Positions 14,273-51,800 of a DNA stretch of 64,000 nucleotides are shown in pieces. Source of the stretch: Lytechinus pictus (taxonomy: Eukaryota); NCBI RefSeq assembly GCF_037042905.1, contig NC_087252.1, positions 372,001 to 436,000 of the forward strand. Reading direction: 5' to 3'. The notes beneath the pieces were generated by a model, which was not told where the DNA came from, ran no database searches, and saw only the letters and a program-made list of their open reading frames with translations. The position numbers were made by a program, and so were the translations under genes. How positions within the stretch are numbered: position 1 is the first letter of the stretch; each line of letters opens with the position of its first letter.

Positions 14273-14303
<31 letters not shown>

Positions 14304-27800: not shown

Positions 27801-30800
27801 AGCGCATGTACGGACGTACACGAGCGATCGAGCCAGCCGAGTCTCGAGCTAGATCGCGCTGAATGCATGCAAGCTTTGGACTGACTCGGCCAGGACCAGA
27901 CGTCCCGTATTTTATTCATTTCTAAAACATTTCAGTTTTTCTTTTTTAAATATATAAAAGAAACACCAAATATCATTAGGATTTTTGTCATATGATTGGA
28001 TTGTTTTTATTTGCTTGAAGTTTGAACTTTTTCCTCTTTCTTTCTTTTCTATCTTTCCTTCTTGCCCTTTTTTGTTACATATCTATTTTTATTTCCTGAT
28101 CCTTTCTCTCTCTCTCTCTCTCTGTTCATTTTCTTTCTTTCCTTCTTTCTCTTACTTGCCTTCTTTATTACATTTTCTTTTTTTGTTTCCTTCATTCCTT
28201 CTCCCTTCCACTCGTTTTTTATTTTCGTTCTATCTCTCCTTCCATTATTATTTTTTTTCATTCTGGCCTCCCTTCATTCTTTCCTCCCTCTCTTTCCTCC
28301 TTTCTTTCTTTCTTTCTTTCATTATTTATTTCATTTTGTCCTTATTCTTTTCCCTTATACTTTCTTTCCCTTTCTTCCTTCCTTCCTGTTTTCTTCTTTC
28401 TTTCCAAGAATGAAGGAAAATTTTCTTTCCTTCATTCTTTCTTTCCTCCTCCTTTTTTCTTACTTTCTTTTTGTCTTTCTCTTCTTTGTTTTGACTTTTA
28501 CACATTTGCTCATCTTCCCTTTTCTTTTTTTTTCTTTCTATATTCAATTCAAAGAATGACAGAAACCTTTTTATCTATTTTTATTCTCTCATCCATTTAT
28601 TAGAACTTTCTTATATTTTTATTATTTCCTTCATTTTCCCCTTCATTTTTTCTTTCTTTCTTCTCAATTCATCTCTTTTCTTTCTCTCCTTCATTCTTTC
28701 GTTCACCCTCCCTTCCAATTCTGTACTTTTTTCACAAGTCTAACACTGTGTAGCCTTCTTTCTTGATCTTTTTTTTTTGTCGATTGTCCCGTATTTCATT
28801 TTGTGAAATCTGGTCACCCTGGCCAGGACTCCGCTTCAAATTCAAACCAAATAAACAATGAGTCGTCAGACTAAAATAGGCGACTTTTGTCGTCGTGATC
28901 GGCGACCAGAACAACTTGAACAAGAGTCAAGAAAAATAAATGCCAAGGGCAGCGCAAGTAAATCAAGTTCAGCCAGGACAGAAAAGAATAATTAAGAGCA
29001 AAATAATTTTTTTTTTTAAATTGGGCAAGCAGTTTTTTCTATCGGGCAAGCAAATTTTTTTATCACTTGCCCGACAGGGCAAGTGATGAATTTTTTTTTT
29101 GTAGAGGCCTGCTGAGGTAAGTGTGGATGTTGACCAGCAGGTGCAATACACCAGGGTCCCGTCTTAGAAAGAGTTACAATTGATCTGATCAACCTCAACT
29201 ATGGAAATCCATCAATGTTATATTTTTCTACACGAAGCTTGCACAATGTCCTTTGTACAACAGGAAAAAAATGAAGGTATAACCATATCAAGGAAATATT
29301 TTAAACATACATGCATTTTAGATGTTGGCATTGCTGGCTTTCCATAGTTGTGACTGATTGGAGCAATCACAAGTCTTTATAAGATGGGGCCTAGGTTTCC
29401 ACCGTACTCTTTCATGAAAAGCCACTTTGTTTTATTAACACAAGACAGCTTCATTGTCCCTGGGGCTGTCAATTCCCCTATCATCTGATTACTTTATGAT
29501 AGTTGTGATAGTTTGTACAAAAGAATGGAATAAGTTACCACAAAACTTTAGATCCAGTCCAACACTGCCCATATTTAAAAATTCATGTCGAAAATATTTA
29601 TTTGAAAGATTACAAAATATCTTAAATTGATTCTTGATAAACCATGTGTGTTGTGTGTGTGTGTGTGCGTGTTGTGTTTGTATGCATTTTCTTATTTTAC
29701 TCTTTAGATTATCATTGTAAATATGTTTTTCATCTCATTATTGTTGTAATGTACTTTATAAGGGGCCCCTCCCACAAGCTCTGCTTCTATGCCCAGGACC
29801 AAAATCCAATTGAAACCAGTTGGATTTCCAACTGGTTTCAATTGGTTTCAACTGGTTTCAATTGGTTTTAACTGGAATTTAACAATTTCCAGTTGAAACC
29901 AATTGAAACCAGTTGGGCAACTGGAAATCCTAACTGGAACCAGTTGGGTAACTGGAAATGACTTCCAATTGGAAATGATTTCTAACTGGAACCAGTTGAG
30001 TAACTGGAAATCCCAACTGGAACCAGTTGGGCAACTGGAAATCCTAACTGGAACCAGTTGGGTAACTGGAAATGTCTTCCAATTGGAAATGATTTCTTAC
30101 TGGAACCAGTTGAGTAACTGGAAATCCCAACTGGAACCAGTTGGGCAACTGGAAATCCTAACTGGAACCAGTTGGGTAACTGGAAATGACTTCCAATTGG
30201 AAATTATTTCTAACTGGAACCAGTTGGGCAACTGGAAATCCTAACTGGAACCAGTTGGGTAACTGGAAATGACTTCCAACTGGAAATGATTTCTAACTGG
30301 AGCCAGTTGAGTAACTGGAAATCCCAACTGGAACCAGTTGGGCAACTGGAAATCCTAACTGGAACCAGTTGGGTAACTGGAAATGACTTCCAATTGGAAA
30401 TGATTTCTTACTGGAACCAGTTGAGTAACTGGAAATCCCAACCGGAACCAGTTGGGCAACTGGAAATCCTAACTGGAACCAGTTGGGTAACTGGAAATGA
30501 CTTCCAATTGGAAATGATTTCTAACTGGAACCAGTTGGGCAACTGGAAATCCTAACTGGAACCAGTTGGGTAACTGGAAATGACTTCCAATTGGAAATTA
30601 TTTCTAACTGGAACCAGTTGGGCAACTGGAAATCCTAACTGGAACCAGTTGGGTAACTGGAAATGACTTCCAACTGGAAATGATTTCTAACTGGAACCAG
30701 TTGAGTAACTGGAAATCCCAACTGGAACCAGTTGGGCAACTGGAAATCCTAACTGGAACCAGTTGGGTAACTGGAAATGACTTCCAATTGGAAATGATTT

Positions 30801-33800
30801 CTTACTGGAACCAGTTGAGTAACTGGAAATCCCAACTGGAACCAGTTGGGCAACTGGAAATCCTAACTGGAACCAGTTGGGTAACTGGAAATGACTTCCA
30901 ATTGGAAATTATTTCTAACTGGAACCAGTTGGGCAACTGGAAATCCTAACTGGAACCAGTTGGGTAACTGGAAATCCTAACTTGAACCATTCAGTTGTGT
31001 AACTGGAAATCCTAACTGGTACCAATTGGGTAACTGAGATGACTTCTAACTGGAAAGATGGTAACTGGAAATGAATTCTAATTGGAACCAGTTGGGTAAC
31101 TGGAAATTATTTCCAATTGGTTTCCAATTGGAAATTTTCCAGTTACCCAACTGGATCCAATTGAAACCAGTTAATTTGCATATTATTTGCCAGTGTGCAC
31201 ATATTAATGTTTTATGAGATTAATCATCATTAACAATGTATCTATTTAATTCTTTACAATTTCAAGTACCACACTTTTTAAAGATTAGTATTTAGAATAC
31301 TTAGCAGTGAAAACCATGTTCATAAATGTTATAGATTATAATTAAAACAGATTAAAGGATAATTAGTACACCACTAACTGTTACCAAATTACATCAAATA
31401 AAAGTACATATATTTGAAGATCTTCCATATAAATATATACACATGAAAGTCTGTATTTTATCAATGCCCTTTACATTGGTATTAATAGACATATAACACT
31501 GCTTCTGTGTTGGCATGAGAAATAGTTAGTGCAAATGCTAATTAATTTGTAACTAATTAAGTTCGTTCCAACTGGAAGTTCCAATTGGATCCAGTTGGAA
31601 ACCAATTGGTTTCAACTGGTTCCAGTTGAAACCAGTTGCCTCCAATTGGTTTCAACTGGAACCAATTGAAACCAGTTGCCTCCAATTGGATTCAATTGGT
31701 TTTAATAGGGAAATTGGAACAACTGGAACTAATTGACAATAATTGCCAACTGGTTCCAGTTGCCCAATTGGTTTTAACTGGAACCAATTGGCAACTGGTT
31801 TTCAATTGGTTTTTAACTGGAACCAATTGGCAACTGGTTTTCAATTGGAACCAGTTGTTCCAATTTCCCTATTGAAACCAGTTGGCCAACTGGTTTCAAT
31901 TGGTTTTGCCCTAATTGGTTTTAACTGGATTTTGGTCCTGGGTGGGGTCCCAAACCTATCATGCATTCTCATTTTTGTTAAGCTATGTGATATGTCTCTT
32001 GTTCTTGATTGGTTTGAATAAATTTGAACTTTGAACTTTGAACTCATATCACATACCTGTTGATGCTAGCCCCCTGAAGATATCGACCAACATAAGAACA
32101 TCCATTGTCTTTGTACAGTTGAAGACATACAGAGGTTGACCTACAATACGACTCAGCTCTCTCGCAGTCTCAACACGTCCACTCAACTATGTAAATAACA
32201 TATGAATCAATAAATTAGGCTACTGTACAACATAACATTAAAATTCAATGTTTTGTGTGTTTCTCTCCATTGTCCTAAACTCTTGAACCTCGAGACAGTT
32301 TAGGAAGTATGAATGCATGACATTACAATATCTTGATAATAAGTTTTCAGGAGATCCCAATCACTTTAATCCCATCAGGTATGGTTAAAGTATTACAATG
32401 CTTGATTTCAATGAGAATTTTCATGTAAAGTTTATTAACTGTCAAAATTTGGGGGGGGGGGGTTGAAAATACACATCATAATAAAACAAACCAAGGGGAA
32501 AAGGTGATCCAGTAATGGGTTACTTTGCAAAGAGCTTGTATAGAAGCCTTTCATAATAAGCCATCTTGCAACTTTGTTAGGTTTTGATTACCTGAGCAAT
32601 ACAGATTGACTATTAAGGTAATATTGGGACAATAGCATAATTATCCAAGAAACAATTAAATAAATGAACAAAGACATGGATCATTAAAAAAGGTAAATGA
32701 AAGGGTAAACATATGAATGTAAAATTGTATAAGTAAATTATGAGATAATGTATGAAAACAACTAATCAACAAAATGAAAAAAAAAAAAAAAAAAACAATT
32801 AACTTACATTTGAGCCAACACACATGGCTGCAGTATGACTCTTTATGGTACTAGCCATGCTATAATACATCTTCTCTGTGCCTGGAAGGAAGGCTAGACG
32901 TGCTGCCGATCCTTGGTATTCAAAGCCATAGTCAAACTCTGCATCAAGGAGCTGTAAATAGATAAAATAAGGGGAAAATCATTTTAAATATGCATCAATG
33001 TTCTTTGAATGCACTCTTGCAATAAACGTATTAACTTATAGATGCAATGTTATTTTCCCCCACTTTTAATTATATATCTGTGAACTCAACATCCAAATGA
33101 GGGAACTCATGAAAAATGTGGCACGGGATGAGTTGATTGACCTTCCGCCCTCCCACCATTTCAACCTTGATTTCATTTTCGAAATACAGTTATGATCTAA
33201 AACATGATCTAATTTAATTCCAAGAATCAAAATGTATTTACATGTACATGTAGATCATAGATTTAAAGGTTTGATGTTCTCATATCTCTTGACCACAAGG
33301 TAAGGTAGCAAACCAATCCTGGGGGTCATTTCATAAAGCTATTCATTAGGAACAACTGTAAGAATCTCTCGATCCTTTTTGTTTATATGGTATGCACCAA
33401 AATGTTAATTGGCGAATGCACAGCACGTAGAAATTTTCACAAGTCATTCTGAAAGTAGCTCTTAACTTATAAACAGCTATATGTAACACCCAACAGTTGG
33501 GTGAAAATAGGTACTCTGTTGGGAATTTATTCACAGAAATTATTTTGTGCCCCAGAGACAACTGTATGCTGAAGGCATGATTAATGACTGTAGAGCACCT
33601 ATGTCTTATAAGAAAAAGTTTTAAAATCAATTCCAAAATTGGCAATGACCATTCTAAATTATTGTTGCATGCTCATACTGAAACATTTTGTTCAATGATA
33701 GTGCACACCAATGTGAATCACAATTCAATTTTATTGCAAATACACTTTTAAAAGGCTGGAGGAATCTATATAAGAGGTTATACGAACCCATCATTATTTA

Positions 33801-36800
33801 ATAGAAACAACTTGTGGATAGCAGAAAAATGAAAAATTGTTTGAATGATGGGGCAGTATGTACCTTGACTTTCAAGTTATTGCTGCTTTCATCCCAGTTG
33901 TATCTAAGCTGGCTCTTCCATTCAAAGCAATCAGCAAGCTTGCCAGTCTCATCCTGCTTCTTATCAAATCTGGGAAAATATGAAAAGAAACAAAAAATTT
34001 AAATTCCTGCTCAGGTTCAAACTCACCATATTTCCACTCCTGAAGACGGACAGTCAACCTGTCCGAAAGGTTGAGTCTCTCTACTACTCATCATCTCTAC
34101 TCGCCGACTCAAGCCAGCATCTCCTCATTAGCTCTACTACTCAAGCTGTTCTCAACTCATCAATCTTTCCTGGTTTACAGTCCTTTTCAGGACTACTTTC
34201 AAGAAAGAATACTCTACTCTCAAATCTCCACTTTCTCGCCTATCCATTTCTTCTCTTCTTCTATCCACTGTTTCTACAACACTCCACATGGTGTACCGTA
34301 AACCACATCAGCGATTGTACATGCCACCATGCAAACCTTCAAACAACATCCAATAAATATTTCATCGTTATGTACGTATTTATTAATTCATCTATCTATC
34401 CATCTATCTATTTATTTGTTTCTGTATTTATCAGTATATTCATCCACATATTTATTGTTATCATTACTGTATACACTATACACGATTATCAGGACAAAAA
34501 CAAGAATAAGAATGAGATACATACATACATGTTTGTACAGAACAAAGAAAATGAAGAGAAAATATAACGGAAAACAGAAAGAAAAAAATATAAATATCAT
34601 TGAAGGTGATTGATACCCCACCATACATGTACAATGTATAGCTGTTACCAGTACACTTGAATCAAATGGATAATGAATGTTTGTACAAAATTTTGTACAA
34701 AAGCTATGGAAACAAAACTGGGGAATTAGTTGTCCTGGGTTTTGGGCACTAGCATGCTGTTATCATGGAAATACAATTTCAAATAGATTTGGAAAATGAA
34801 CTTGCATATTTTTATCTAAAGACAAATGTTGCTGACAACTTTCATGAGCACTGGATACAAACTGGGAAAGTGGTGAGATCAGTAATGAGTTTTCCTGTTT
34901 TGGGTCAAAATATGTGGTTACCATGGCAACACAATGACAAATGAGAAAATAATGTGTCTTACACATCTTTTCATCCTTTCATATGTGGGTGGTAAATTCT
35001 GTGAGAATCGGGTTAAGAACTGATCAAGTAGGTTGAACAAGATTTTTGGCCAATTTTCATAATATAATAATTTTATTACAAAATGGCTAAACAAGCAAAA
35101 AAGAAGTCTTGCACATCAGGACCTCAGGACCAACATGTGACCCAAATCTCATGAGTATTGATTAAAAATTATGAAGTAGTTCGAACTGCAAGATTTTTAC
35201 CTATTTTTTTTGGCCATATTATATGTTGTTACCATGGCAACACAGTTTTTGACACACGCAAACAAATTTGTCTTGCACATCTTTATCTCAAAACCAATGT
35301 GTTTAGCCAAATTTCATGAGAATTGGTTAAAAACTGAGGAAGTATTTTGAACCACAATATTTTATCAAATTTTTGCCAATATACTGTTACCATGGCAACA
35401 CAATTTCCAACACATGCGAAAATGGATTTTTGCACATTTTTAACCCCATTACCAGTGTGTGTTCCAAACTTTATGAGAATTGGTTAAATGTACAACATAA
35501 TTTGCAACCAACCATCAGCCCAACTGTACAACGATTCCCCCTTTAATAAAAATAGGGAAAGAGGGAAAAAAAGGAAATACAAATGAGGGTGTACACAAAA
35601 TCCCAAATAAAAAAATATTGAAAGTATCACAACAATAAATTAGAATGAAACAGGAAACTGGGAAAGTGGAAATAACCTGAATTCTCTTTCTGAAAATCAG
35701 CCATATTTCTTTAATAATTCAATTGAATTAAAGGTCCTTCCTATATCGATGATACTGAGATGTGTTGAAATACTGTCTTACCAGGTCAGTAGACTAGGGT
35801 GCTTGTGTTGATAGAGCTGACATAACGTTGTGTGATAGGCAATACATGTACATGTATGATCATACAACCACCGATTCATGATCATTGCTTCAACAGTCCA
35901 TTGTTATTATACTGAAACATGGCAGGTCAATCAATAAAAATATCTGAAAATATGCATTCATCTGTAAATGCAAAATGCCCGATAGCTACATGTATCCAAG
36001 CACTCGCTCAATATTATTTGGACTTTGGACATGATAAATTTTTAATCTTTTTAATCTTTTCTGTGTTCAAACTTTGAGAATGTTTGCTTTGCTATTAAGT
36101 TTGGCAACAATAGGGATCGAGACTTTTGTGCAGGGTTAGCGACGGAGCATGCGCGTTTGCATGCAATTTCTTCCGGTTTCACAGTTTTCCCGTACTACTA
36201 GACATGTATACAAGTCGATCGTTCCAACACACTGTTTCTACTTACAACTAATAATTGTTCCTCATCTTGTAAAAGCCAATTACACACAATTGCAGGGGTT
36301 TATGGCATCTGAGTCCAGAATTTGACAAGTGAGTATAATTAAAACAATGAATGCAATGATATTGCAGTGTAGTCTTACCATTTACATGTAGATCTAGTGA
36401 GAGTTACCAATGTGTTATATTCATGTAGTGTTGGCTGTACATGTATGTAATGGGTCAGAGTGAAATATACAAGAATGTAATCAACATAATATTTTAACCC
36501 GACTTATAACAGAACAAAAATGAGAAAGAGGGGGAAGGTAAGGGAAGAATTCAATTGCAGACTGTCCTGATTTTATTAGGAATGTCCTGATTTTCAACTT
36601 TCAAAGTGGCTAAAAGATTCAGGATTGTTGTCCTGATTTCTGAAATTCAATTGGAGAAAAAAATATTAAGAGAAAAATTACCAATAGCAATGGACCCATT
36701 CGTACCACCAAGTCTTCAATACACCCCTGTACATGTAAAAGAGCCCAGTATTTTAAGGGTTAACCCTATCTAGACCGGGGTATTTTGGGAGTTCATATGG

Positions 36801-39800
36801 CCGGGGGGGGGGGGGGTGGGCTTCCCAGGCCCCCCCCTTGAGATTTTGGCTGTTGGCCACATGATCGCGCTGAAAACTGGCATGCAGGTTGTCTTGGACA
36901 TAATCTACAAAACTGTATAGCAATTTATTTCATGCAAATTGGTATTTAGCGATTATGCTAATTTATGCGTCATTGGTATGCGAAATCATACTTTTCCCTC
37001 TAACTCCCTAAATAAAGCTGCAATTGTTACAATTTTTGGTATAAAAACTCTTTTTGGTGTTCCTTGCATGTGTACATGAAAAAAATTGCGATATCAGAGT
37101 AATTTCTTATGTATTTTAATTTTTGGCAATTATACTTACATGTACATGCATGTATTTCCTTGTTTTTTGGACCTATTGTGTTTCAATGAAAAGTGTTTTC
37201 AATGAAATTTGTTGGGAACTCTTCTAAGATCATAAACAGCATAAAATAAATACATTTAGACCAGCAAAACTAAAAATAATCATACATTTATGATTATTGG
37301 TTGAAAACAGAATTTGCATTGACTTTGTACACGAAATCACATTTTCAAGCAATTTTTGGTCTGACATGCACTTACATAATGTTGCCTAATTTTGGAACCG
37401 CGTACATAGGTGACACAACTTTGGTCTCAAAAGTTGCGCAAGACAGGGTTAAGGTTGACAAAAATGCAGGAGCTTCAGGAGCACTGCTTTCTGGACTCCT
37501 CATGTGACCCTCATTACCTAAAAAGAGCTAATTCCTTTTAATCCTTATAAGTAGGAGTGGGCTATACATGGGTCAAAAATACTTCTTTTTTCATTTTAAT
37601 ATGCCAACAGTTTTTATTTATTCCAAGGTTGTAATGTATCTCAACATATAATGACAATATTCTTTCTCTCCTCTACCTTGTTTTACGGATTACATGTATT
37701 TGCGAAATATATCATATTAAATAAAAAAAAAATGTAATTTATCCACAGGTGCTATCTACAGTATAGTACAATGTATTGTACATACTGCACTGCATAATGT
37801 ATGTCCTTGCATTGACCACCATTTGTAGGATAAACTAGTGTCATAGAAATGACCTCTTGAATTATATGCCTCAGAAAGTGAAGATACTATACATGTATGT
37901 TTTGTCCCAGAAATTGAAGACACGTTTTGTCCAATATGCATACAGGGGGTGGAAGAGTGGTAAATATCATTAACAATGGATTATACATGTAGCTAGTCAA
38001 CCCCATATATTATGGCATTTACACTGTGGTTATTCTGTTACCATTAGGGTAACTTTGCCATCCAATTGTTACTTTCATGGAATCCTAAATTCTGATTGGC
38101 CGTTGATCATCGTTACATTATCATGGTAGTTACCTGACCCCATGAACATAGGGTTAGACACCCCAACCATGTAAGAACAAGCCTCCAAATGAAGAAGGTA
38201 TGGCTAAAAATGTGATGTAAGTACGTGTACATGATATTTATGTGCAATTTATGTTTATCATCGGGTTACATCATGTACAATGTACATGTACATCAGCTAA
38301 AAAGCAATTAAAATTCACAAGTGACAATCTAATTCTAAACCTCAGGAGCTCACTTCTATGACACGATAAATTATATAAAGGGACTTGTTATATGTCATGG
38401 TGGTCAATGCATGGATATTATACATATAGTGCATGCTGTTGAGTTCAATATACCATAATATGAGTGTCCATAGATTTCAAATTTCTTGCGTGCGTTTATA
38501 GAGGGCGTAGGCCGAGTTGAAATATAAACACACAAGAGAAATTTATGGATATGAATGATATTGTATATTAAACGATAATAAGCATGTACTATGCGTTATA
38601 TGAGATGGGAACACAGAAAAATTACCGCATAATCGTTTTCCTCAAGGTATCGATCGATGGATCACCTTATGAGGTTTTGTACACAAGCTATCGTGCAGAA
38701 ATTGCCGGTATATGCCATGATCGTGGCCATATACCGGATTACGTCATTGCAATTGACCAATCAGAAGCCTTCTCTCATACCACCCATCTTATATACATGT
38801 ATGCTGTGTCGTATGTACAATATATATATATTAGCCTGTATGGATAAATTACATTTTTTTTATTTAATAAGATATATTTCGCAAATATCTGTACAACACA
38901 ATTCTATACGAAGCTGCTTACTACATCTCAACTGGTATAGTCTAATATCCAAGAACCACGAAACTATGAAACCTAATTTTTGGCTGAAAAAAGGGTCTAA
39001 AATGTGTAAATTTAAGTAAAAATCACCTTTCAACTCTACAAATAATGGTTTAAAAGTACTAATTTTAGGAAAAACAAATTGCCTGCCCCCCACAACATAT
39101 GAATAGACACTAAAACCAGAGAAAAAGACCACCTAATAAAGAAGTTGTGGCCAAAACTTTGATTTTGGGGGATTTAAATCCCCCAAAATCACAGTTTTGG
39201 CCACAACTTCTATTTGGCGGCTATTTTGGATTTTGGCCCGGCATACTTTTTTCTCGGACCCAAGACAAAAAATATTTTCATTTCATGTTGAGATAAGAAG
39301 GTAAAAGGAATGCAAAATAACTGTTGCCACAGAAAAACCAAAAATCACCCATTTATAGCCCACTCCTATAATAAGACTGAAGGGGCTGATTCATGCAGCC
39401 CCCCCCCCCTTAACATTTTTTGCAATAAATCCAACGCACAAAATTTTCTGACACGGTCACTCGTTGACTTTTTACTTTCAAGTCTCGCGAACTTTTGAGA
39501 CCAAAATTGTGAGCCCCTGGCACATATACTTGGTTGCGTAGTTACAACATGTATGCAACATTTTGTACATGTAAGTGCATGCAGACCCAAGAATACAGTG
39601 TATGTGAATTTGTGTAAAAATCCAGCGCAAATAGTGTTTTTCTGTATCTGTATCGATCAGTCAGCAAAATTCCAGGATTGGCACATCACGCTAACTTGAA
39701 GAACATGCTACATGTACGTGTGGAGTGGCTCAAAGTATTAACTGATATTAATTTTGATCTATTCTAGCTGAAAATACGGATACAAAGAAAGAGTCCTGAA

Positions 39801-42800
39801 ATGCACCAGCTTTATGATGGATTTGTTTGAACTTTTTGGGGTTGTGTCTCGTAGATATTTCATTGAATTGGACATAGTCTTGAACGGGAATTGAGACTAG
39901 TCCATTCACCATCTTATGGTGCTTCTAGTTTTCAGTGTGGCCCAGCCTAAATCCTTTAGGGCCCCTGTAACAGCACCATCTTCTCTTGAATAGTTGTTAG
40001 TACAGAATCTCGCTGCTTGTCTTTCGATTCGTTCAAGAGAGTTGATGAGTGCCAAAATTGATAAATGTATCATTATTTTTCCTTTTACTGATTAAAATAA
40101 ATTAATTTCATCTTGTTTATGGTCAAAGTAAAGTATCCAGATTCCTATAAAGAGTTTGTGAATCAAAAATTAACATTTTAGGGGTATTATTCAGTTGATT
40201 AGAGCAAACTTCTGATTTAAAAAAAAAGTTAGCATTTCAAAATTAGCATAAATAATATTTATCATTAATTTTTTTCACAGAATTTTATCTTACAGTTTTG
40301 TAGATTATGCCATGGGTATTGTGCGTGTCAATTTTTGTCGCAATCGTGCGGTGATCATAAGGGGGGGGGGGCTGAATCATCCCACCACCCTGTTTTTATT
40401 GGTGTCAAAATAGCCCAGTCTACATGAATGTAGGTTAAAGTAAATTTCAAATTTATGAATGTTGTATGAGGTTTGGATGTATAAAATGCAAATAAACACA
40501 AAGTAACAAATCAGAAACTGAGTTATAGGGTGTATTTAATAAGGCATTTTTTTAGTGCAAACAGATACAGTTTCATCTCTACATTATGCATTTAAAATCG
40601 CTGATGTGATTTACGATACACCATGTGTAGTGTCATAGAAACAGTGGATAGAAGAAGAGAAGAAATGGATAGGTGAGAAAGTGGAGATTTGAGAGTAGAG
40701 TATTCTTTCTTGACAGTAGTCCTGAAAAGGACTGTAAACCAGGAAAGATTGAAGAGTTGAGAACAGCTTGAGTAGTAGAGCTGATGAGGAGATGCTGGCT
40801 TGAGTCGGCGAGTAGAGATGATGAGTAGTAGAGAGACTCTTCTGAAGATGGACAGTCAACCTGCCCGAAACGTCGAGTCTCTCTACTACTCATCATCTCT
40901 ACTCGCCGACTCAAGCCAGCATCTCCTCATCAGCTCTACTACTCAAGCTGTTCTCAACTCTTCAATCTTTCCTGGTTTACAGTCCTTTTCAGGACTACTT
41001 TCAAGAAAGAATACTCTACTCTCAAATCTCCACTTTCTCGCCTATCCATTTCTTCTCTTCTTCTATCCACTGTTTCTATGACACTACACATGGTGTACCG
41101 TAAACCACATCAGCGATTGTACATACCACCATGCAAACCTTTAAACAACATTATGCATTTAATTTTTATGACAGCATTTGAACATATCCATGTTTTTTTC
41201 TTCTCTCTTTAACAGTTTCAAAGAGTGCTTTGCTGAGACATACTGTGAAAACCTGTGAACGACATACACAATTCTGTAGGAACTGATCTCGTTCAAGTGA
41301 CACTTTTTCTTGTTCAATCAACATGGATCTAATGAGACAGAATGTAATTCTGGCTGTTCTGACTGGACTCGTATTGTTCTCTGTCCTGTCTTGTGCAACG
41401 AGTAATGAAATCTCTTCTTGTGTGGACAGTAATGAGGTGGAGTGTGTTGATTTTGACAACACAGACAACTATTGTAAGGTTGGAGAAAACATTTCAGCAC
41501 GGGTTGATATTAGACTACTTAAAGAGGATCTTGAATTGATCCTCTATGAACTGGAACGAGTATCACTCGTCAGCATCGATAAAACCTTGACATCTGGAAA
41601 CACTGTCAAAGACAAGAACTTTGGAAGTCGTTTCCAAGTTGCCACCAACATAAAACCAGCAGAAGAATTTGGAAAACTTGAGATCCAAATGACCTTAGAG
41701 AATTTTAAGCGGAGTGATACAACGCTGATGCATGTGGACATAAGACTCGAGAACAAGATGATTAGTACACAGGGAAAAGCATTCTTCCCAGTACAGCCTG
41801 AACAAACAATCCCAGAAGTAACAACTACAGCAGTAACTCCTAATAAAAAAGATGATGTACATGTAGCAGTATTTCAAATCCTACAGGACATGAACAATAC
41901 AACGAATGGGTTACTTGACAGAATGGACAGGATTGAGCAAACAGATAGTGAAAGCGACTTACATGTATGGCACCTGCATGAAAACCTTACAAAAGGAGAG
42001 CAAAGCAAACCTGAACATGTATATGGCATGTATGTGTACATATGTATAATGACCACCTTAATAGTGATTTTAGAAATCATGTATTTCGCCTGGAAACTGT
42101 ATGAGAGGAGGCGACCAAGGAATTCTTCACACTCTGCAAGAGTAAGTGTGCATAACCTAACTAAAACAAACATCTGTCTACAAGTACCCTTTCATGTAAC
42201 AAAATCAGGAAGTGGACTCCCTTCAATCCTGAACTCACAAGAACACAAAGCATTTGAACAGCCTGGATCCTAGTGGACAAATTTGGGATGCATGCAGTGA
42301 ATCTATAGTTAAAATGTAAATACTGTACACTGTAATATACATTCTTTAAAACTCATTTTAAATTTTGGTAACCACCCCCCCCCCTCCTTAGAAAACAATT
42401 CTGACTAGTATTCAAATTAATTAAATCATATGATATTGTATGCAATAAAACAGTTATGATGCTAATGGCTTTGATTCTTTCAAAGTGCTTCATTAAATAA
42501 ATTTTGATAGTATGGAAATTGTTGATCATCATGGTAGTATAAAATCGGTAAAGGAAATAATCTGTGGTCTTATGATGTGGCAAACTGAAATTGCAACGTT
42601 TTGACTGCACCTGCTAGTCTTCGTCAGGCAATGAGGTGGACAATCGCTGTGGTGCCTTTTATACCGTAAGCCGCGTGCCATCGGTGCCGGAACTGCCGTG
42701 CTACAATTGGTCGGAGTAACCGACCAATTGTAGGCCGCGGATGGCGCGATCGCTGGGCCCTAAATCCCATCGGCTGCGGGCCGCATGGAAAGCGGGCAAT

Positions 42801-45800
42801 TTGCGGACGTTGTTATCAGCGGCAGCTGTACAAATACTAGTGTGATTAGATGTGGACGTCGGAGGGTGATTCACCGATGAGCATCAGGCGGTCATAGGGG
42901 GAGCATGCCGGCGAATGGTCGGAAGCCATTCCTCGGGGATGTCAATGCTGTTATCCCTGTTAACATTATTCGGATGTAGGTGGATTTGGATAGCCTCTTT
43001 AACATGCCATGTGTACCAGTGCTTATCCCGCGCTATGCAGCTTACCTCGTCCCAATTGGGAGGGTGCTATGCAAGCCAAGCATGTTCTGCTAATCCCCAA
43101 CTATCTATGCGCCGGTGCTCGACATCTCAGGGATGTTCTAGCATTCTTTCGCTAACGGGTCTGCCCGTTTCCCCAATATAAACCTTGTCACAAGCACTGC
43201 ATGGTATCTTGTAGATAACGCTATCGAGTCTACCGGGCAGCGTGGGGTCTTTGGGGCACACTAGCTGTTTAGACTTGAAAACGGCGTGTATGCTATACTT
43301 CTCTAAGTGTCGGCGGAGCTGGCAAGAAATAGAATTGACAAACGGTAGAACAACGGTAGACTTGCCTTGCACAACTTCTTTATCGGTGGCGTTCTTCCTC
43401 TTGGTTACGCAGTTGAGAAAGGAGCACGGGTAACCATGGGAAATGAGAGCAGAAGCAATGCATTGCTTCTCAGCGGCGGCGGATTGTGGCTTCGATACAA
43501 AGCGCGATGCCCTGTCATAAAGGCCTTTAACTACCGTACCCTGTGTTTGACGGACTGGAGATGATGCGAATCATAAGCTAAATATTGATCTGTGTGCGTA
43601 GGTTTCCTTTACCGGTTAAGATAAAGTTTTCAGGAAATTGATATTTATTTTGATTGGGTGCCAATCCACTACTTTAAAATGGGTATTCATCCTATTTATA
43701 TATTGTATCAAGCATGGCATTGGCCAACATATAACCAGTCGTTAACAAACTTGATGGTTACTACATTTTTGAAAGGTTGAAGTGTCAGATAATGATGAAG
43801 TGTAATTCACAACTGCAAGCAGAATAATGCTCTTTTATTGTAAAAACAGAAAGAGCATCTTTTCAAAACAATGTATATCAATCAGAACATTGGCAAATTA
43901 ATTGGATCGAAAACTTTCAGAGATAAATCTATGATTTTATATTAACAAGGTAATGTATAATGAACAAGATTGTATAGCAATTATATTGTCAAAAGTAATT
44001 GACACTGCCATCAACTGTTTCATAATTATTACCATCAGACTGTATGTACAACTACCACATTATCTTAATAAATCTGTAAAGCGGGTAGAATCACTGTCTT
44101 TATTGAGCAGTAGTTAAAAGCTGAGTATTTTCAAAATCTGCATAAATGTACCTGTTAACATAAAATACAGGCATTAATCAATTATCATGATCTTATTTTA
44201 TAACACATCTTTATCACATATTTGTCATCATTTCTGTAGGTGTCACGTAATCTGGTAGACAGAAGTGTCAATATTTTGGTATGGTTGGGCACTGATGGAA
44301 AACGACCAATACAAGAAGACCTTGACAAACGGATCCAGAGGGAATACAGCATAATCAATATACCACCAGAACAAACTGCCATCATTTCAGGCCAAGATCC
44401 CAAATCATCATGTCCTGTAGAAGGAGAGCCACTGATAAATAATGACAAATGTACATGCAGATTTGTGCCTGGCAGGTATATAAATATGTAATGGCTACCA
44501 AGGATCTATCATCTAGCAAAAACTAAACCTAACGAAAACACATAAATAATAACTTTTTCCTAGAGGCAACTTTCTACTAATTTACTACACCTGAGGCTTG
44601 TCAATGATATACATACTAAATATGAGAGAAAGTTGCCAAAATGGAAAATATTTTCTTTTTTTTTCATTTGTAAGGGATAGGCCTATGTACATATTGTACA
44701 CATTGTAAATAACTTTAAAAGTCTATTCAAATACATGTATATAAAGGTCTATAGTATATTGAAAATTTTAACATGAAAACAAATGTTGCATTTTTACATG
44801 AAAACATTGAAAGTATTGGACTAAGTGCCCTTAATGACAAATTGTGTAGGGGACCCATGCAGGGACCCATTGCATAAAATATACCATTATGGTAGCTTTG
44901 GTATGCAATGGTTACTTTCATGGAATCCTTGATTTTGATTGGCTGATGAGTATTGTTACCGTGGTAGAAATTACCAATGGATAGCAAAGTTACTTGTACT
45001 ATACTTTGGCCTGCATTCTGAAGTTTTAAAGTTAAAGATTTAAAGTTACGGTTCAACTATGGAGAGCCAATCGAAGCACAAATCCCTAACAGTCCACATT
45101 CAATTATTAACTCATTTGACACCCAAATTGCTCATAATTGTCTGGGAATGATAACTGAAGTATTTTTCTTCATTATGAAAGCAAAATGAAACCAAATAGT
45201 AAACATAAGAAATATACAATATTTTTTTTTTGTATTTTGGCTTCCCATAGTTTTAGCACTGAGTTAGACCATGGTCTAAGTTAATCCTGACTTCAAAATA
45301 CGGGCCTTTATTTGCAAATGGGCCCCAGGAGTCGGTTTTTGTTACTTTTATAACCTCCAAGAATGACCCATATATAAACATAATCGATTAATATTAATAT
45401 TACATGTATCTTTTCATTGCAAATAAGTACTGTACCATATCATTATCAATATTGGTACAAATGCTAGAAATGTTTTCTTTCATTCATTTATTTCTCGTCT
45501 TCTCTCTTGTCTTGCCAAGATTGGTTATTCGTTTGTCATCATTGTCATTGTGATTTGTCATAATTGTAGTTGATTTCTTCTGATTTATCTACCTAGTAGT
45601 CCCAAGCAGGCCAACAAGCTGATTCAACCTTTTCAACTGCCAATACTGAATTTACTTAGAATGGTTACAACAATTCACCTTTCATTCGCTTGTTTTTAAA
45701 ATACATCATTATAGTTTGGTTTAATATTGAAGTACCATCTAATTCCATTCAGTGTACTAAATTTAGGAGTGAATAATTTTTTTCTTTCCTGACATACACA

Positions 45801-48800
45801 TTTTCTCATAGCTGCCCAGAACTAATATCACCTTTGCACTTTTATCATTATGTAATACCATTTGAATTTTGAATTTAGATATGGAAAAGTTTGTGTAATT
45901 TCTTGATTGTTTTGTAACAATGCTTATTGGTTGATTTTATGTGTATTTTTAGTTACTGTTTTGTAAAATTCATTTAAGATACTTACGAGCTGCATGTTTT
46001 ATCAAGTCTTGAATCTTGAAAGCAATTCATGATTACATTTTTTTATGCAAATGCAGAACTTCTAGATCTATGATGCTTTTTGTTGGTATTACAACTGTCC
46101 TTCATTTTACAGTCATGAAATCATTGTTTGCTGTTAATGGTGGGGGATACTATTATCACCTTTGCACTTCAATCATTGTAATACCATTTGAATTTTGAAT
46201 TAAGATATGGAATTGTTTGGGTATTTCTTAATTTTTTGTAAGGTCTTTTTCTGTTGATTATATGTAGAAAACTGGATTAGCACTCCTTGCAACCCCACCC
46301 CCCACAGTCTTTTATTGGACATGTGTATTCACAATTTTCTATCTTAATCTAATTTGTTTTATGTCCCTACTGTATATATGTATATATATAACATTTTATT
46401 TATTATTTTCTTATCTGCATTTTTTTTTAAAGCAAACTATTGATATTCTTCCTACTTGTGTCTTTTGCATTTTTACTGTAAAAAAGGTGTTGTTGAGTTT
46501 ATTCTGATTTGTTTTAACCTCATTGGTAATGTATATGAATGAATGTATTACAGTCATACTTCTCTTATTATCCGGCCTCCCCTTATCCGGATCTCTCTAT
46601 TATCCGGACGCCTTTAAATTGAACTGACACTGCAGTGAATACTGTGTGTACGCCCACTATATTAGATAATGTGTAGCTACTACATGTATAGGGGAGGTAG
46701 CTGCATGTGTTTGATATTGGGTCTCCCAGATCCGGATAAATCTCTTATCCGGATTGGTGCTGGTCCCAACGTGTCCGAATAAGAGAGGTCTGGCTGTAAT
46801 TTTGTTTGTGCCTTTCAGTGGAAAGAAAAAATAAAACTTTTCTAACAGTGTTATTTTGTGTGTAGATTTCTATTTCTGTGGAAATACTAAAGTTTCCTCA
46901 AAATCTCTTATAAAGTCAAGGGAGAAATCATAACACATTCATTACAAATAAAAAAAAAATCAGTTCTTAAACAAGCTAAAATAAGACAGGGTTTACATGT
47001 AGAATAAAAAAAATTGTATAGATCTCCTAATAGAGACCATACAAAAAAAATTACATTTTTTACGTCCCACAAAATAACAAACACAATATTATACGTTTTA
47101 CTTGCATACATGTATATATATTTATCAATGCTAATGCAGACAAATTCTTTTCAAGATGCACATATAATTTCTATGGATGTATTCAGCAAAATATACATAG
47201 TCATCGACACCACACCATACAGATACAATATACAGAGGGAGTGCAAAAAGAGAAACAAGACCAATGTAGAGAGTGAGGGGTGAAAGAGAGAAAGAAAAAA
47301 AGGAAAGATAAGGAAAGAGGGGAGACTTTTGAAGTGTAATAAAGAGATGTCCCGTAAGTCAGGGTAATGATAATATCAGGGCCTGATGGGGGAACAGATT
47401 TAGGAAATGAAGTGGTTATCCTGGATACATAAACTGTTATTATTATAAATATTATTTTCATCATATTCATCATCATCATCATCATCATCATCATTATCAA
47501 CAACATCATCATCATCATCACCATATCATCATCATCATCATCATCACCACCACCATCATCATCATTATCACCACCATCATCATCTTTATCAACATCATCA
47601 ACATCATCATAATTATTATTACTATTATTATTAGCAATGATCATAGAACATTTTTCTACCATTGATTGCATTGACTACAATGTACAATCAGTCATGAAAA
47701 ACAAGCAAACAGTTAATCGCTAACCTTTGTGTTACAGAACTGGACTATTTATCCTTTGATTTTCAACCGTAAAATTGAATCCTGTTTATTCATGCTTTTT
47801 CATATTTCATAAGTTACATTCAAACAATCTCAAAGGAAAAAAGAAGTTTAAACTAGATACACACAGATTCATAGAAGAGATTGTTGCAATTAGAATGAAA
47901 AATTTCATTTTATAAACTGCATTAAACCCTCTTTCAGAACTTTCTCAAAATGGATGCCAAGCCAAAGTATGTCACCCCCATTCCCCCTCCCAAACAGGGC
48001 ACCATGCTAGATATAGTTTGGCAGGGAAAAGAAGGTTAACAAAGTCTGAATTTTACGAACTTTCACACTTAATGACAGGGATAATAGCAGGGATCATGCT
48101 AGCTTAAGATATATTAAATTGTGAAGTCATAGTTTAACATTTCATCGAGGATTTATTATTCACAATTCGTGATCATTGATACTGAAATATGCAATATAAT
48201 GTTTCCCCATAATAAATCCAGAATATCGTTGCAAAACTATTAGACTCTAAGATATCTGGCTGTTTTTATCAGCTACATGTACATGTATATTAGGTTGCTT
48301 TTCATAGTTATGAGCTATAGACAATGGGATTTACATTCAACCAATTTTCAGCCTCCTATTAGAGTACCCAAATTCCATGACAACTAATTTCCTAATGAAC
48401 ATTCCACTAAATGGTATAGGGGTGTTTTACTTACCTACTTATATATACTTCCTATTGATGATAAGAAAAGGGAGATTGAAATCAAACCAGTTTTTGCCCC
48501 ACCCTTATATTAACAGTGAACTCCAAATTTACATTCTATTATGAAATATAGGGGGTTAATCTAACCTGTTATTACATCCCTCTCATGGGCCATGAGGGAA
48601 ATCAGGTTGAAACTAAACCAGTTTCCAACCCCTCTAGTCAATTACAAAATCACATTATATCTATTATCTTAGAACTATTCCATTCTGAGATATAGGGGTG
48701 TTCTGCTTACCTGTTCATTATAACCCTCTGATGGGCTATGAGGGAGATCAGGTTGAAATCAAACAAGTTTACAACCCCTCTATACTAGAAGTGGATTAAA

Positions 48801-51800
48801 AAATTACACTACATTAATACCATGGTCACATTTGCTCTACGGCGGCCATACGGCGAGTCGAAAACAGCCGTTTTATTAATTTTAATTCAAACCATCTATA
48901 TACAGCTGGTACAAAAATGTTAAAACGGCTGTTTTCAACTCGCCGTACGGCCGCCATAGAGTAAATGTGAACATGGTATTACTATCTTAGGACTATTCCA
49001 TTATGAAAATTAGGGGTGTTTTGCTTACCTGGTGATTACATCCCTTTGATGAGCCATGAGGGAAATTAGGTTACTAATCTTCTGTATCTGAGCAGGGAAG
49101 AGGAGAAGCTTCAACTCGGTCCGATCGACCTGTTCCTCAACGACGACCTTGACCTTTGGCCTCTCCGGAGGAAGGACGACCTTCATGGTGTCCACAGGAC
49201 GGCTCTTTATTTCACCAGCTGAACAAGGATAAAAGATAGTATACAAATAATGAATGTTCATGAGTGCAATGGACAGAATACTTCATGAGGTGAAAGATGA
49301 AATGATCCATTCAACGAGGCGTAACCGATTTGAATGGATCATTATTTCATCTTTCACCGAATGAAGTATTCTGTCCATTGTACGAATGAAAAACATTCAT
49401 TATTTGGTTTATATGACACCTAAATTTTTTTTTTTCATATGAAATTCATGAATTTTGATGCAAAACATGCTCATGCAGTGCAAGTTTGGTCTGTTGATTG
49501 TTATGTCACTACAACACGCGCACTGCTGGTGCTTGAGCTTGGTGCGCGAGTGCAATGGACAAAATCGTATGGATCCAAAATTGCATGATGAATGGATCCA
49601 AAATTGCACAGTTGATGACGTCATTGCAAAATGGGCTGAATGAACGATATCAAACAACCAATCAAATCACAAGGATCAATCTAGGTGTCATATAATAAAG
49701 AAAATATCCGTCATACATGTAATAATAATCTGAACATGTGATTGGTCCACACCTCGTCATGTGACCAAAGATAGTTCCAACCAATGACACAAAATTAACG
49801 AAAATGCCATGAATCCCGACATCATGATGTCACAAGCCGGGAATAGTACCCTGAGCCGTGATTAGTTACAGCTTGATAAACATGGCTTAGGGCCATCGTA
49901 TGGAGATCTTTAACAGAGAGCTTGCATACACGCAGTGAGCAATCAACTCAATTTTCATTAACAAGTCCCCATTCAATAACCGGGATTCCTTACTGTTATT
50001 ATATTCAGTGACATTTCCCATCAGTTGTATTCAATGATAGTACCGATGACAGATATCAACAAAATATATCAATCTCAGTGATGGAAATGCGACAATTTGC
50101 GTAGGCTGTGAAATGATATTGCCTTCCCTCATAAAGACCATTATTGACCATTTCAAAATTTTCATGCAATTTTTTGTTTTATTGCTGCAGCAGAGATTTT
50201 TTATGTTGGCATTGCTGGCTTTCCATAGTTGCGGTTGATCTGATCAATAGCAACTCTCTCTTTAAGACATGGCCCTGTTACCATTCTCAAACCTCAATAA
50301 AAATACTTACTGACATCACTAGCCTCTTCATTGATCACAGAGTGCATACTGCCCTCCTCTTGGATGGGAGTGGCAGGTTGAGGGATTGCTGGTTCGTTAA
50401 GACTCCATTGTGAACCTCGGTATGAGTGGGAGCTCTGTCTGCCAGTCTGTGAGACGACCGTGCTGTTATTATCCGCAGCGGAATTATCAATGTTGTTATT
50501 TGCTGGAGGAGAAACAGAGATGATCATCAAGTAAGGTTCATATTACATTCACTTAACCATTTGGAGTAAATGAACGATAACTAATTGAATAAAATGCCCT
50601 ACACATTGAAACAACACACAAATTCACACCTCACCATATAGTAAAAAAAAAGGCACAAGAAATAAAGAAATTCTTAGTATATTGTATACCAAAAAGATTA
50701 ATAAACAGGCACATTGAATCAGCTCTGATTGAATAAAATTAAGTGGAAATAGTAAAAACTTAAGCAGTGATCTGAGATCAAATTTTGATTTTTACCAAAC
50801 TTTCACTGAGCTTTCAACCTAACCGATTCAAGAGGACACAACACTGAGACTTCCCCTCCCGTTTCTTTAGGTATTCAAATTCTTACCTTCTTTCCTGAGT
50901 TCTTTCCTAAGTCTTGCTTTCTTCTCTTTCTCATCTTCAATTCCTTTCAGCATCACCACTGCTGATTGGATGCTAGTATTCATCTTAGTCAAGATATCCT
51001 GAAAATAAGACCATGAAATAGATAATAATAATCAGTTCTTGTATAGTGCAACATTATACATAACATCTCTATGCGCTTCCAAAGGCCTTGGATACTATTA
51101 CCCAGGCTGTAGATCAAGCAGCTAGCTTCCATCACTCGGCATTTCAAGGAATAAATTCCTGCCAGGTACCCATTCACCTCACCTGGGTTGAGTGCAGCAC
51201 AATGTGGATAAATTTCTTGCTGAAGGAAACTAGGCCATGGCTGGGGTTTGAACCCACGACCCTCTATTTCAAAGTCTGGAGACTAATCCACTGGGCCACA
51301 ACGCTCCATATCAAAATGTCATCTCCAATGCTCAAAAACCCTTGGAATGATCTCAAAGGGAATGGACAAAGTGTATACACTGTGTGGAGGCATGCATAGA
51401 TATGGTGACTGGGGTAATAATGAATCAGAAAAGTGCTTAGAGACATTGTTCCAAGGTATTAAGTGCTATATAGAAATGGAATATTATGATTATCAACCCT
51501 TATGGTCCTGGGTTATTTTGATTCTTGTCACTGTCCGGTCGGAAAGGGGATTGATTATACCCCCTCCTAAGATCTCAGCCTTGGATTGTGTGCTCGTGAC
51601 AAAACATTCGTAATTTTGGGTCTGACATGCACTTACATAACAATGTGTATTTTCATAACCACATACCCGGGCGTCACAACTTTGATGTCAAAAGTTCCTT
51701 GAGACTTGAAAGTAAAATGTCAGCGAGCCATGGGGCCCAACAAATTCGTGCGGTGCATTTATAGTGAAAAATCCTCATAAAGTTACCTTGAGTGAGTCTT

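What the first reader, a model, noticed from the sequence alone, without database searches (positions are those of the whole stretch)
36140..46865. Opposite-strand receptor-like gene nested in the 15-kb dynein intron
Seen: a plus-strand ORF at 41323 with signal peptide, Cys-containing N-terminus, an Ig-V-like segment (RFQV...[14 protein letters not shown], without the canonical F-strand Cys), a Thr/Pro stalk, a TM helix and a basic stop-transfer. An acceptor at 41215, an in-frame donor at 42142 and an acceptor at 44239 predict a 356-aa protein (273 + 83). No family is recognisable to me. It lies in the only very long intron of the host gene.
Basis: partly seen in the sequence, partly recalled or inferred. 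Interest (0 to 1): 0.75.

Follow-up and report, generated by a model that had tools for sequence, protein, structure and literature searches.

The report
Ig-like membrane gene in dynein intron
A real, already annotated but unstudied sea-urchin gene for a single-pass membrane protein with an antibody-like outer domain lies on the opposite strand inside a 15-kb intron of a dynein gene; the nesting is ordinary, while the protein belongs to a tiny unnamed family.

Summary
The plus-strand frame 41287-42273 is the longest in the window. Its splice sites are canonical. A 316-aa read-through form is also on record. Both coding exons lie inside one minus-strand dynein intron, 33970-49028 (15,059 nt). 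The upper exon of that intron is assigned by frame and splice sites only.

The gene is single-copy. Only five distant relatives (19-22% identity over the whole alignment) turned up in billions of proteins. I could not obtain RNA evidence, so the 5' exon (36328>41216) and expression remain untested.

Verdict: a real gene, a new member of a known kind (a cryptic IgSF-like receptor), in an ordinary nested position.

The parts
36140..36328 (+).
   Evidence: GTGAGT follows base 36328. No RNA data could be laid, so this is a prediction only.
41216..42141 (+). Main coding exon: 5' UTR part plus codons 1-273 (ATG at 41323)
   Evidence: Acceptor AG at 41214-15 and donor GTAAGT at 42142-47. The translation equals residues 1-273 of XP_063959377.1.
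41323..41397 (+). Signal peptide (about residues 1-25)
   Evidence: N-terminal hydrophobic window with Kyte-Doolittle 2.41. All six family members have one.
41434..41802 (+). V-set-like Ig domain (residues 38-160), preceded by the conserved Cys33/Cys41 pair
41803..42018 (+). Thr/Pro stalk and predicted helical membrane-proximal segment (residues 161-232)
   Evidence: Sequence. AF2 predicts a helix at 182-224 but with pLDDT below 50. Four of five homologues give weak, below-cut-off coiled-coil-type Pfam hits at about 167-224.
42019..42096 (+). Transmembrane helix (about residues 233-258), followed by the basic YERRRPR
   Evidence: Best hydropathy window is 238-256 (2.21). AF2 predicts a helix at 231-262.
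42142..44239 (+). Intron of the nested gene (2,098 nt). Retained, it gives the 316-aa isoform, which stops at 42271-42273
   Evidence: The 316-aa form P0001 is itself an NCBI/UniRef record.
43127..43570 (-). Fragment of a high-copy mobile element inside that intron
   Evidence: 393 candidates in the own genome. All 150 scored lie between 1.7e-95 and 9.8e-11, many inside frames of 700-900 aa. No Pfam hit.
44240..44491 (+). Second coding exon: 83 residues of the cytoplasmic tail plus the stop
   Evidence: Acceptor AG at 44238-39. The translation equals residues 274-356 of XP_063959377.1. A tail motif is shared with P0007, reached by 4 of 500 shuffles.
44492..46865 (+). Putative 3' UTR, up to the first AATAAA at 46830
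   Evidence: The first AATAAA/ATTAAA after the stop is at 46830. The true end is not verified by RNA.
33970..49028 (-). Host dynein intron (15,059 nt) that contains the whole nested coding sequence
   Evidence: GT at 49028-27 after exon 49029-49218, and AG at 33971-70 before exon 33864-33969. The lower exon is mapped by P0008. The upper exon is assigned by frame and splice sites only.
40590..41124 (.). 535-nt foldback repeat ending 92 nt before the acceptor of the coding exon
   Evidence: 250-nt arms, 98% complementary. It is a high-copy dispersed repeat.

Best explanation
This is a genuine single-copy protein-coding gene of Lytechinus pictus, RefSeq LOC135155009. It is transcribed from the plus strand inside a 15-kb intron of a minus-strand dynein heavy-chain gene.

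Shown:
- two coding exons with canonical splice sites;
- a 356-aa product identical to RefSeq isoform X1;
- a read-through 316-aa isoform that is also on record.

Inferred from sequence and predicted structure: the product is a type I membrane glycoprotein. From N to C terminus it has:
- a cleaved signal peptide;
- a small Cys-x7-8-Cys loop;
- one V-set-like Ig domain whose core disulfide 'pin' is replaced by hydrophobic residues, while the Arg-Asp pair and the core Leu are kept;
- a Thr/Pro stalk that is probably O-glycosylated;
- a helical membrane-proximal segment, leucine-zipper-like in the homologues, that probably holds two or more chains together;
- one TM helix;
- a 100-residue cytoplasmic tail.

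Inferred function: a cell-surface recognition or adhesion receptor. The Ig-like domain would bind an extracellular ligand, and the tail would couple to sorting or signalling. The tail carries YSII and a C-terminal YINM, and both are present only in the spliced isoform. Retaining the intron would swap this tail for one without tyrosine motifs.

The nesting itself is probably incidental. The host and the guest look like independent transcription units.
For: Gene reality.
- The frame is 328 aa, against a simulated maximum of 204 aa.
- Codon-position GC is coding-like.
- Splice sites are canonical.
- The product matches XP_063959377.1 exactly, and a second isoform is on record.

Homologues.
- phmmer read all 1.84 billion representatives and found 3 relatives (E 8.7e-11, 1.1e-07, 6.3e-06) besides the query itself.
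- A profile search added 2 more.
- All six proteins have an N-terminal hydrophobic stretch. Five of six have a C-terminal TM window; the sixth, P0004, ends inside it.
- Thirteen columns are invariant.

Constraint on the domain. In the closer trio the ectodomain is 77-78% identical (100/130 and 101/130), while the stalk is 46-48% identical (34/71 and 32/70).

Fold.
- AF2 pLDDT is 68-88 over the 10-residue blocks 41-160.
- Foldseek's top PDB hits are Ig V domains, with TMt 0.61-0.75.
- The Atlas's own ESMFold model aligns to Ig domains at TM 0.60-0.69.

Single copy.
- The query matches only its own locus in the 812-Mb genome.
- P0002, P0003 and P0007 each match only this locus.
- The neighbouring repeats, by contrast, are high-copy.

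Tail. Exon 2 shares an (I/L)PPxxxxxIxGQxP stretch with P0007, reached by 4 of 500 shuffles.
Against: - I saw no transcript evidence.
- The structural alignment behind the model is shallow: six sequences, whole-model pLDDT 56 and pTM 0.37.
- The stalk helix and the tail are modelled below pLDDT 50.
- No Pfam Ig model matches any of the six members. The PDB profile search finds nothing.
- The C'' strand is not predicted as a strand.
- Tail similarity to the other homologues is not significant: 31-491 of 500 shuffles reach the observed score.
- The tyrosine motifs are not conserved, and no member has an ITAM or ITIM.
- No named orthologue from another annotated echinoderm appeared in any search.
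- Ligand, oligomeric state, cell type and function are all inferred.
Confidence: 0.7

Rival explanations
1. The gene is a captured or domesticated glycoprotein gene of a virus or mobile element that landed in the dynein intron. It would not be an ordinary host receptor gene.
For: - The language-model look-alikes of the whole protein are led by herpesvirus glycoprotein I clusters (0.91, 0.90) and include adenovirus E3 CR1.
- Mobile-element debris lies on both sides: a high-copy element fragment in its intron and a high-copy foldback repeat 92 nt upstream of the exon.
Against: - The gene is single-copy in the genome, unlike the flanking repeats (against 70, 71).
- It has a spliced two-exon structure with canonical sites.
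- No terminal repeats bracket it.
- The BFVD matches are only generic Ig-like membrane proteins with poor superposition. The best TMt is 0.56, and most rows have rmsd above 5 A.
- Atlas scores of about 0.9 occur for 4-10% of shuffled proteins, by the tool's own note.
Confidence: 0.05
2. The locus is a young, lineage-restricted open frame that the annotation pipeline called. It has little or no function: either a decaying or a de novo gene.
For: - Only five distant relatives were found in billions of proteins.
- No named orthologue appeared.
- I saw no RNA evidence.
Against: - The relatives share the whole architecture and 13 invariant residues at only 19-22% identity over the whole alignment. 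That implies long-term retention.
- The ectodomain is more conserved than the stalk within the closer trio.
- The domain folds confidently.
- A 328-codon frame is far beyond chance.
Confidence: 0.1
3. The ectodomain is a beta sandwich of Ig-like shape only. It would be convergent, or belong to another sandwich superfamily, and would not be a diverged V-set IgSF domain. On this view the comparison with Ig receptors says nothing about descent.
For: - No sequence method links it to IgSF.
- The disulfide pin, the Trp and the Tyr corner are absent.
- A helix at 67-75 sits between strands B and C, and the C'' position is helical.
- Greek-key sandwiches are a common arrangement.
Against: - Of the 50 rows of the wide search, all but one (7dkj_C, rmsd 12.9 A over 150 residues) are V-type Ig domains.
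- The Arg...Asp pair, the core Leu and the Asp-x3-hydrophobic-x-hydrophobic spacing fall where the V-set motifs fall (PMC9546547, section 10).
Confidence: 0.15

Closest known systems
Single-pass IgSF receptors with one V-set domain. Structural matches here: CD8 alpha, TCR delta V, Nav beta2, MAG domain 1, Dpr/DIP Ig1. Atlas look-alikes: PVRIG, VSIG4.
   Different: No Pfam V-set/ig hit. There is no B-F disulfide, no core Trp and no Tyr corner. A conserved Cys-x7-8-Cys pair precedes strand A. A helical, zipper-like segment lies between the stalk and the membrane.
Hydractinia Alr proteins, domain 1 (Huene et al. 2022, PMC9546547; abstract and sections 9 and 10 read)
   Same: Both have V-set-shaped domains that HMMs mostly miss. 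In both, the Cys-Trp-Cys pin is replaced by hydrophobic residues while the Arg-Asp salt bridge and the core Leu are kept. Both are type I membrane proteins with fast-evolving tails. An Alr2 cluster is among the Atlas structural neighbours (TM 0.67).
   Different: The Alr proteins form a 41-gene cluster with two or three Ig domains, and many have ITAMs or ITIMs. Here there is one domain, one gene per genome and no ITAM or ITIM. No sequence similarity to Alr was shown.
Protein-coding genes nested in introns on the opposite strand. Examples: Drosophila 2mit in timeless2 (PMC3786989) and LRRTM genes in alpha-catenin introns (PMC3933685). For both papers I saw only the search listing and the start of the abstract.
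   Same: A complete membrane-protein gene lies inside a long intron of an unrelated host gene, in antisense orientation.
   Different: Nothing unusual. Conservation of this nesting in other echinoderms was not testable here.
YxNM signalling tails of DAP10 and CD28 (recalled, not from any call)
   Same: The spliced isoform ends in YINM, which fits both YxN and YxxM.
   Different: It is a four-residue match in one species only. None of the five homologues has it. The resemblance comes from memory and is a lead only.

Membership tests
IgSF V-set domain | Two-sheet Greek-key sandwich of V-domain size that superposes on solved V domains | tested here: met
IgSF V-set domain | Cys23-Cys104 disulfide between strands B and F (feature list from PMC9546547, section 10) | tested here: not met
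   No Cys lies in strand B (57-66) or strand F (135-141). The aligned positions read V/M/M/L/L/I and V in 6 of 6. I mapped the positions by spacing and DSSP strands, not by a printed superposition.
IgSF V-set domain | Core Trp41 on strand C | tested here: not met
   Strand C (80-84) reads VSLVS. The columns at 80 and 82 are V/L/V/I/I/V and L/V/I/L/L/L, with no Trp. Mapping is by position.
IgSF V-set domain | Arg75-Asp98 salt bridge | tested here: inconclusive
   R103 is Arg in 5 of 6 members and D132 is Asp in 6 of 6, at the expected places in the sequence. The contact itself could not be measured, because model coordinates are not exposed.
IgSF V-set domain | Hydrophobic core Leu89 on strand E | tested here: met
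   L119 is Leu in 6 of 6 members, within GKLEIQM.
IgSF V-set domain | Tyr102 corner | tested here: not met
   Position 136 is M/L/L/L/L/L. It is aromatic in 0 of 6 members.
IgSF V-set domain | C'' strand specific to the V-set | tested here: inconclusive
   DSSP gives strands at 41-46, 57-66, 80-84, 88-91, 104-111, 116-125, 135-141 and 146-148. It gives a short helix at 98-101 where C'' would lie.
IgSF V-set domain | Match to the Pfam V-set/ig models | tested here: not met
   0 of 6 members hit any Ig family at E up to 1.
Type I single-pass membrane protein | N-terminal signal sequence, one C-terminal TM helix and a basic stop-transfer | tested here: met
   By hydropathy only. The N-terminal window scores 2.41 and the TM window 238-256 scores 2.21, followed by YERRRPR. 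No dedicated signal-peptide or topology predictor was available.
Nested (intronic, antisense) gene | All coding exons lie within one intron of a host gene on the other strand | tested here: met
   The CDS (41323-42141 and 44240-44491, + strand) lies inside host intron 33970-49028 (- strand). The upper host exon is assigned by frame and splice sites only (one search found no dynein match).
ITAM/ITIM-bearing immune receptors | Yxx[I/L]x(6-9)Yxx[L/I] or [I/L/V/S]xYxx[I/V/L] in the tail (definitions from PMC9546547, section 9) | tested here: not met
   No match in any of the six tails.
Mobile-element or viral gene | Multiple copies, or flanking element structures, or specific similarity to viral proteins | tested here: not met
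   One locus in 812 Mb. No bracketing repeats. Only generic Ig-like matches in BFVD.

The most novel reading that the evidence does not exclude
The protein founds a deuterostome-invertebrate family of 'pin-less' V-set receptors that sequence methods cannot see. They would oligomerise through a membrane-proximal zipper. In Lytechinus they would signal through a DAP10/CD28-like YxNM tail, switched on and off by retention of the single coding intron. That would make it a costimulatory-type immune or gamete-recognition receptor, outside the catalogued sea-urchin IgSF repertoire.
Probability: 0.07. Interest if true: 0.6.

Novelty: new member of a known kind. Interest (0 to 1): 0.3.

Why it matters
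The gene model itself is already in RefSeq, and genes nested in long introns are common. So neither the existence nor the position of the gene is news.

What this work adds is a reading of the protein. It is a single-copy type I membrane protein whose ectodomain is predicted to be a V-type Ig sandwich. Sequence models cannot detect that domain, and it lacks the disulfide pin. This is the same kind of cryptic IgSF domain described for Hydractinia Alr proteins.

If such families are widespread, counts of IgSF receptors in echinoderm genomes that rest on HMM searches are too low.

L. pictus is a sea urchin, and I recall (from no call) that it can be raised through generations in the laboratory. 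A knockout and a localisation study are therefore realistic.

Tried and rejected
RNA evidence.
- The look-up of sequencing runs listed 20 runs, and no listed holder is on record as RNA.
- Four runs of one study hold 1.00, 0.38, 0.35 and 0.24 of the sampled words, and their kind is only guessed.
- Runs of a second organism hold 0.04-0.13 of the words. None of these could be laid, so they say nothing about expression or conservation.

Structure and complex tools.
- Complex prediction (two copies of residues 30-265) was not available.

Searches of the own genome and of earlier findings.
- The genome search does not take an alignment for this genome. I used single proteins instead.
- The search of earlier findings returned nothing by place, by sequence or by words.

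Mapping the host dynein exons.
- A Pfam scan of 136 minus-strand frames between 31 and 54 kb found only the two AAA_6 exons.
- Frame 53707-54066 and exon 49031-49216 gave no dynein hit in PDB.
- A long translation with stops was rejected.
- tblastn with the frames of a paralogous dynein locus (L005) found exons only outside the intron.
- The 'longer' protein search returned only a 558-aa fragment, P0008.

Family assignment by sequence.
- Pfam on the query and its pieces gave 0 families.
- The PDB profile search gave only coiled-coil noise, E 0.8-4.8.

Rejected readings.
- Viral origin: BFVD shows only generic Ig-like membrane proteins.
- ITAM/ITIM receptor: no motif.
- Intronic RNA gene: no Rfam family and no tRNA in 33900-49100.
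- The read-through tail as the conserved form: P0001 against P0002 tails, 31 of 500 shuffles reach the observed score.

Literature. There were 0 papers for LOC135155009 or XP_063959377 in the searched library.


Full report
**Observation**

The plus-strand frame 41287-42273 is open for 328 codons and has an ATG at 41323. It is the longest stop-to-stop frame of the 64-kb window; the next are 219 and 177 aa. In 100 first-order Markov simulations of the window, the longest frame averaged 144 aa (sd 19, maximum 204). GC by codon position is 0.48/0.32/0.385, a coding-like pattern.

- an AG at 41214-15 behind a long pyrimidine tract;
- GTAAGT at 42142-47, directly after codon 273;
- an AG at 44238-39, opening an 83-codon frame that ends with TAA at 44489-91.

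**The gene is already annotated**

An exact look-up shows that the unspliced 316-aa product (P0001) is an NCBI/UniRef record. Its 90% cluster holds one other member, P0005. P0005 is 356 aa and is XP_063959377.1, [quoted passage not shown].

So the coding model made by eye is correct, and the gene is known to RefSeq as an uncharacterised locus. No paper in the searched library mentions either identifier.

I could not see transcript evidence myself. The proposed non-coding exon ending at 36328 therefore remains a prediction. A GTGAGT does follow that base.

**Host gene and nesting**

The minus strand carries a dynein heavy chain.
- DHC_N2 exons lie at window 55261-62260 (C8 coordinates minus 372000).
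- AAA_6 exons lie at 32802-32978 and 32052-32186.
- A 558-aa L. pictus dynein fragment, P0008, maps in ten pieces from 34007 down to 22064.

Reading the sequence gives the intron boundaries. The exon that begins FDKKQDE... starts at 33969 behind an AG at 33971-70. The next upstream open exon, 49029-49218, ends ...AHQRDVIT and is followed by GTAAGC. The two join in frame.

That gives an intron of 33970-49028, or 15,059 nt. It contains both coding exons of the nested gene on the opposite strand. The other dynein introns I delimited in the window are about 4.5-5 kb.

One caveat applies. The upper exon is assigned from frame, splice sites and frame continuity only. Neither Pfam nor PDB sequence searches recognise it as dynein, because this dynein is very divergent.

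**Relatives**

- The word-indexed search found only the query itself: 1 of 901 candidates.
- phmmer read all 1,835,955,588 representatives. It found three relatives, at E 8.7e-11, 1.1e-07 and 6.3e-06.
- A profile of these added two more.
- All five relatives come from unnamed Logan assemblies, on contigs of 1.1-2.0 kb.
- They are 19-22% identical to the L. pictus protein over the whole alignment.

They share the whole plan of the protein:
- an N-terminal hydrophobic leader;
- a Cys-x7-8-Cys pair;
- a block of about 125 residues with 13 invariant columns: M1, C41, T47, R64, L70, G92, G117, L119, D132, H137, V138, R141 and T149;
- an acidic and Thr-rich stalk;
- a TM helix;
- a short, variable tail.

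In the L. pictus genome the protein matches only its own locus. P0002, P0003 and P0007 also match only this locus. So it is a single-copy gene without detectable paralogues.

Within the closer trio (P0004, P0006, P0007) the ectodomain is 77-78% identical (100/130 and 101/130). The stalk is only 46-48% identical (34/71 and 32/70). That is the pattern expected if selection acts on the ectodomain. No nucleotide sequences of the relatives were available, so dN/dS could not be computed.

**Fold**

No Pfam family matches the protein or any relative at E up to 1, apart from weak coiled-coil-type hits in the stalk. A PDB profile search finds nothing.

AlphaFold2 on the six-sequence alignment gives a low whole-chain score (pLDDT 56, pTM 0.37). 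However, the 10-residue blocks from 41 to 160 score 68-88, with eight strands. The model matches solved structures as follows.
- Foldseek's best PDB matches are Ig V domains: TMt 0.61-0.75, rmsd 3.2-5.0 A, 7-12% identity.

A second predictor agrees. The ESM Atlas's own model of residues 36-165 aligns to Ig domains at TM 0.60-0.69. Among them is a Hydractinia Allorecognition 2 cluster, at 0.67.

**Membership**

I used the eight diagnostic V-set residues quoted by Huene et al. 2022 (PMC9546547, section 10, read in full). I mapped them by spacing and DSSP strands, not from a printed superposition.
- Gly16 corresponds to G54 (Gly in 4 of 6).
- Cys23 corresponds to V61 (V/M/M/L/L/I).
- Trp41 falls on a hydrophobic residue of strand C, and no member has Trp there.
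- Arg75 corresponds to R103 (Arg in 5 of 6).
- Leu89 corresponds to L119 (6 of 6).
- Asp98 corresponds to D132 (6 of 6).
- Tyr102 corresponds to M136 (M or L; aromatic in 0 of 6).
- Cys104 corresponds to V138 (Val in 6 of 6).

So the Cys-Trp-Cys pin and the Tyr corner are absent. The Arg/Asp pair and the core Leu are kept. This is the pattern that paper reports for Alr domain 1.

The protein folds like a V-set domain. By sequence criteria it cannot be filed as a member, and whether it is a diverged homologue or a look-alike stays open.

**Rest of the protein and likely working**

Residues 156-178 are Pro/Thr-rich. AF2 draws a helix at 182-224, but with pLDDT below 50. In four of five relatives the equivalent stretch (about 167-224) gives weak hits to leucine-zipper or coiled-coil families: TSC22 at E 7e-4, plus bZIP, XRCC4_CC, ZapB and DivIC. 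All are below the curated cut-offs.

I therefore infer a membrane-proximal helical segment that may pair chains. The complex predictor was not available to test this.

The tail of the spliced isoform carries YSII (residue 309) and ends in YINM (residue 353). No member has an ITAM or ITIM by the definitions of PMC9546547, section 9. The tyrosine motifs are not conserved, and the read-through isoform has none.

Exon 2 shares an (I/L)PPxxxxxIxGQxP stretch with P0007, which 4 of 500 shuffles reach. Other tail comparisons are not significant.

The most likely reading is a cell-surface recognition or adhesion receptor whose Ig-like domain binds a ligand. Splicing of the only coding intron would then choose between two tails. 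Ligand, cell type and pathway are all unknown.

**Rivals**

A viral or mobile-element origin was considered for two reasons. The whole-protein language-model neighbours are led by herpesvirus gI clusters (0.91 and 0.90). The gene is also surrounded by repeats: a 535-nt foldback ending 92 nt before the acceptor and a high-copy element fragment in its intron.

Against this reading:
- the gene itself is single-copy;
- it is spliced;
- no repeats bracket it;
- its BFVD matches are generic Ig-like membrane proteins with poor superposition.

A function-less young frame is unlikely, given relatives at 19-22% identity over the whole alignment that share the architecture and have a better-conserved ectodomain.

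**Verdict**

It is not a strange object. It is a RefSeq-annotated, uncharacterised gene in an ordinary nested position. Intronic genes make up about 6% of Drosophila genes, according to the abstract of PMC3786989, which I saw only in the search listing.

The modest novelty is the assignment of a cryptic, pin-less V-type Ig domain to a tiny, fast-evolving, single-copy family.

Noticed in passing
window 32055-32186 and 32808-32963 (-): The host dynein's AAA1 Walker A looks degenerate. The exons read ...[19 protein letters not shown]..., where the aligned solved dynein (7kzm_A) has GPAGTGKTETTKDL. The host may be a divergent, possibly non-hydrolysing dynein-like heavy chain. It is only 29-38% identical to a paralogue over the matched exons.
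   Followed up: partly
window 49000-49075, 48538-48608 and about 48682-48760 (-): The last ~45 nt of dynein exon 49029-49218, together with its donor and ~30 nt of intron, are duplicated twice within the intron a few hundred bases downstream. This is a local duplication, not a dispersed repeat: the genome holds only the sequence itself and one local copy at the search threshold.
   Followed up: partly
window 40590-41124; related arm at 34037-34336: A foldback element with 250-nt arms (98% complementary, 35-nt loop) ends 92 nt upstream of the nested gene's acceptor. A third arm copy abuts the dynein exon at 33969. The element is high-copy in the genome: 1192 first-look candidates, with copies at 90-95% identity.
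   Followed up: partly
window 43127-43570 (-): A 147-aa frame inside the nested gene's own intron belongs to a high-copy element. There were 393 candidates, and all 150 scored had E of 1e-10 or better, many inside frames of 700-900 aa. It has no Pfam hit. A GIY-YIG/Penelope-like nature is only my recollection.
   Followed up: partly
window 29899-30989: A satellite array with nested periods of 83, 114, 197, 311 and 394 nt (86-99% matches) lies in another dynein intron. It produces spurious repeated open frames on the plus strand.
   Followed up: no
window 47411-47645, 14061-14404 and 5115-5566: Trinucleotide (CAT/ATC-type) microsatellites generate long low-complexity open frames rich in His, Ile, Met and Asp. 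These account for several of the longest non-genic frames in the window.
   Followed up: no
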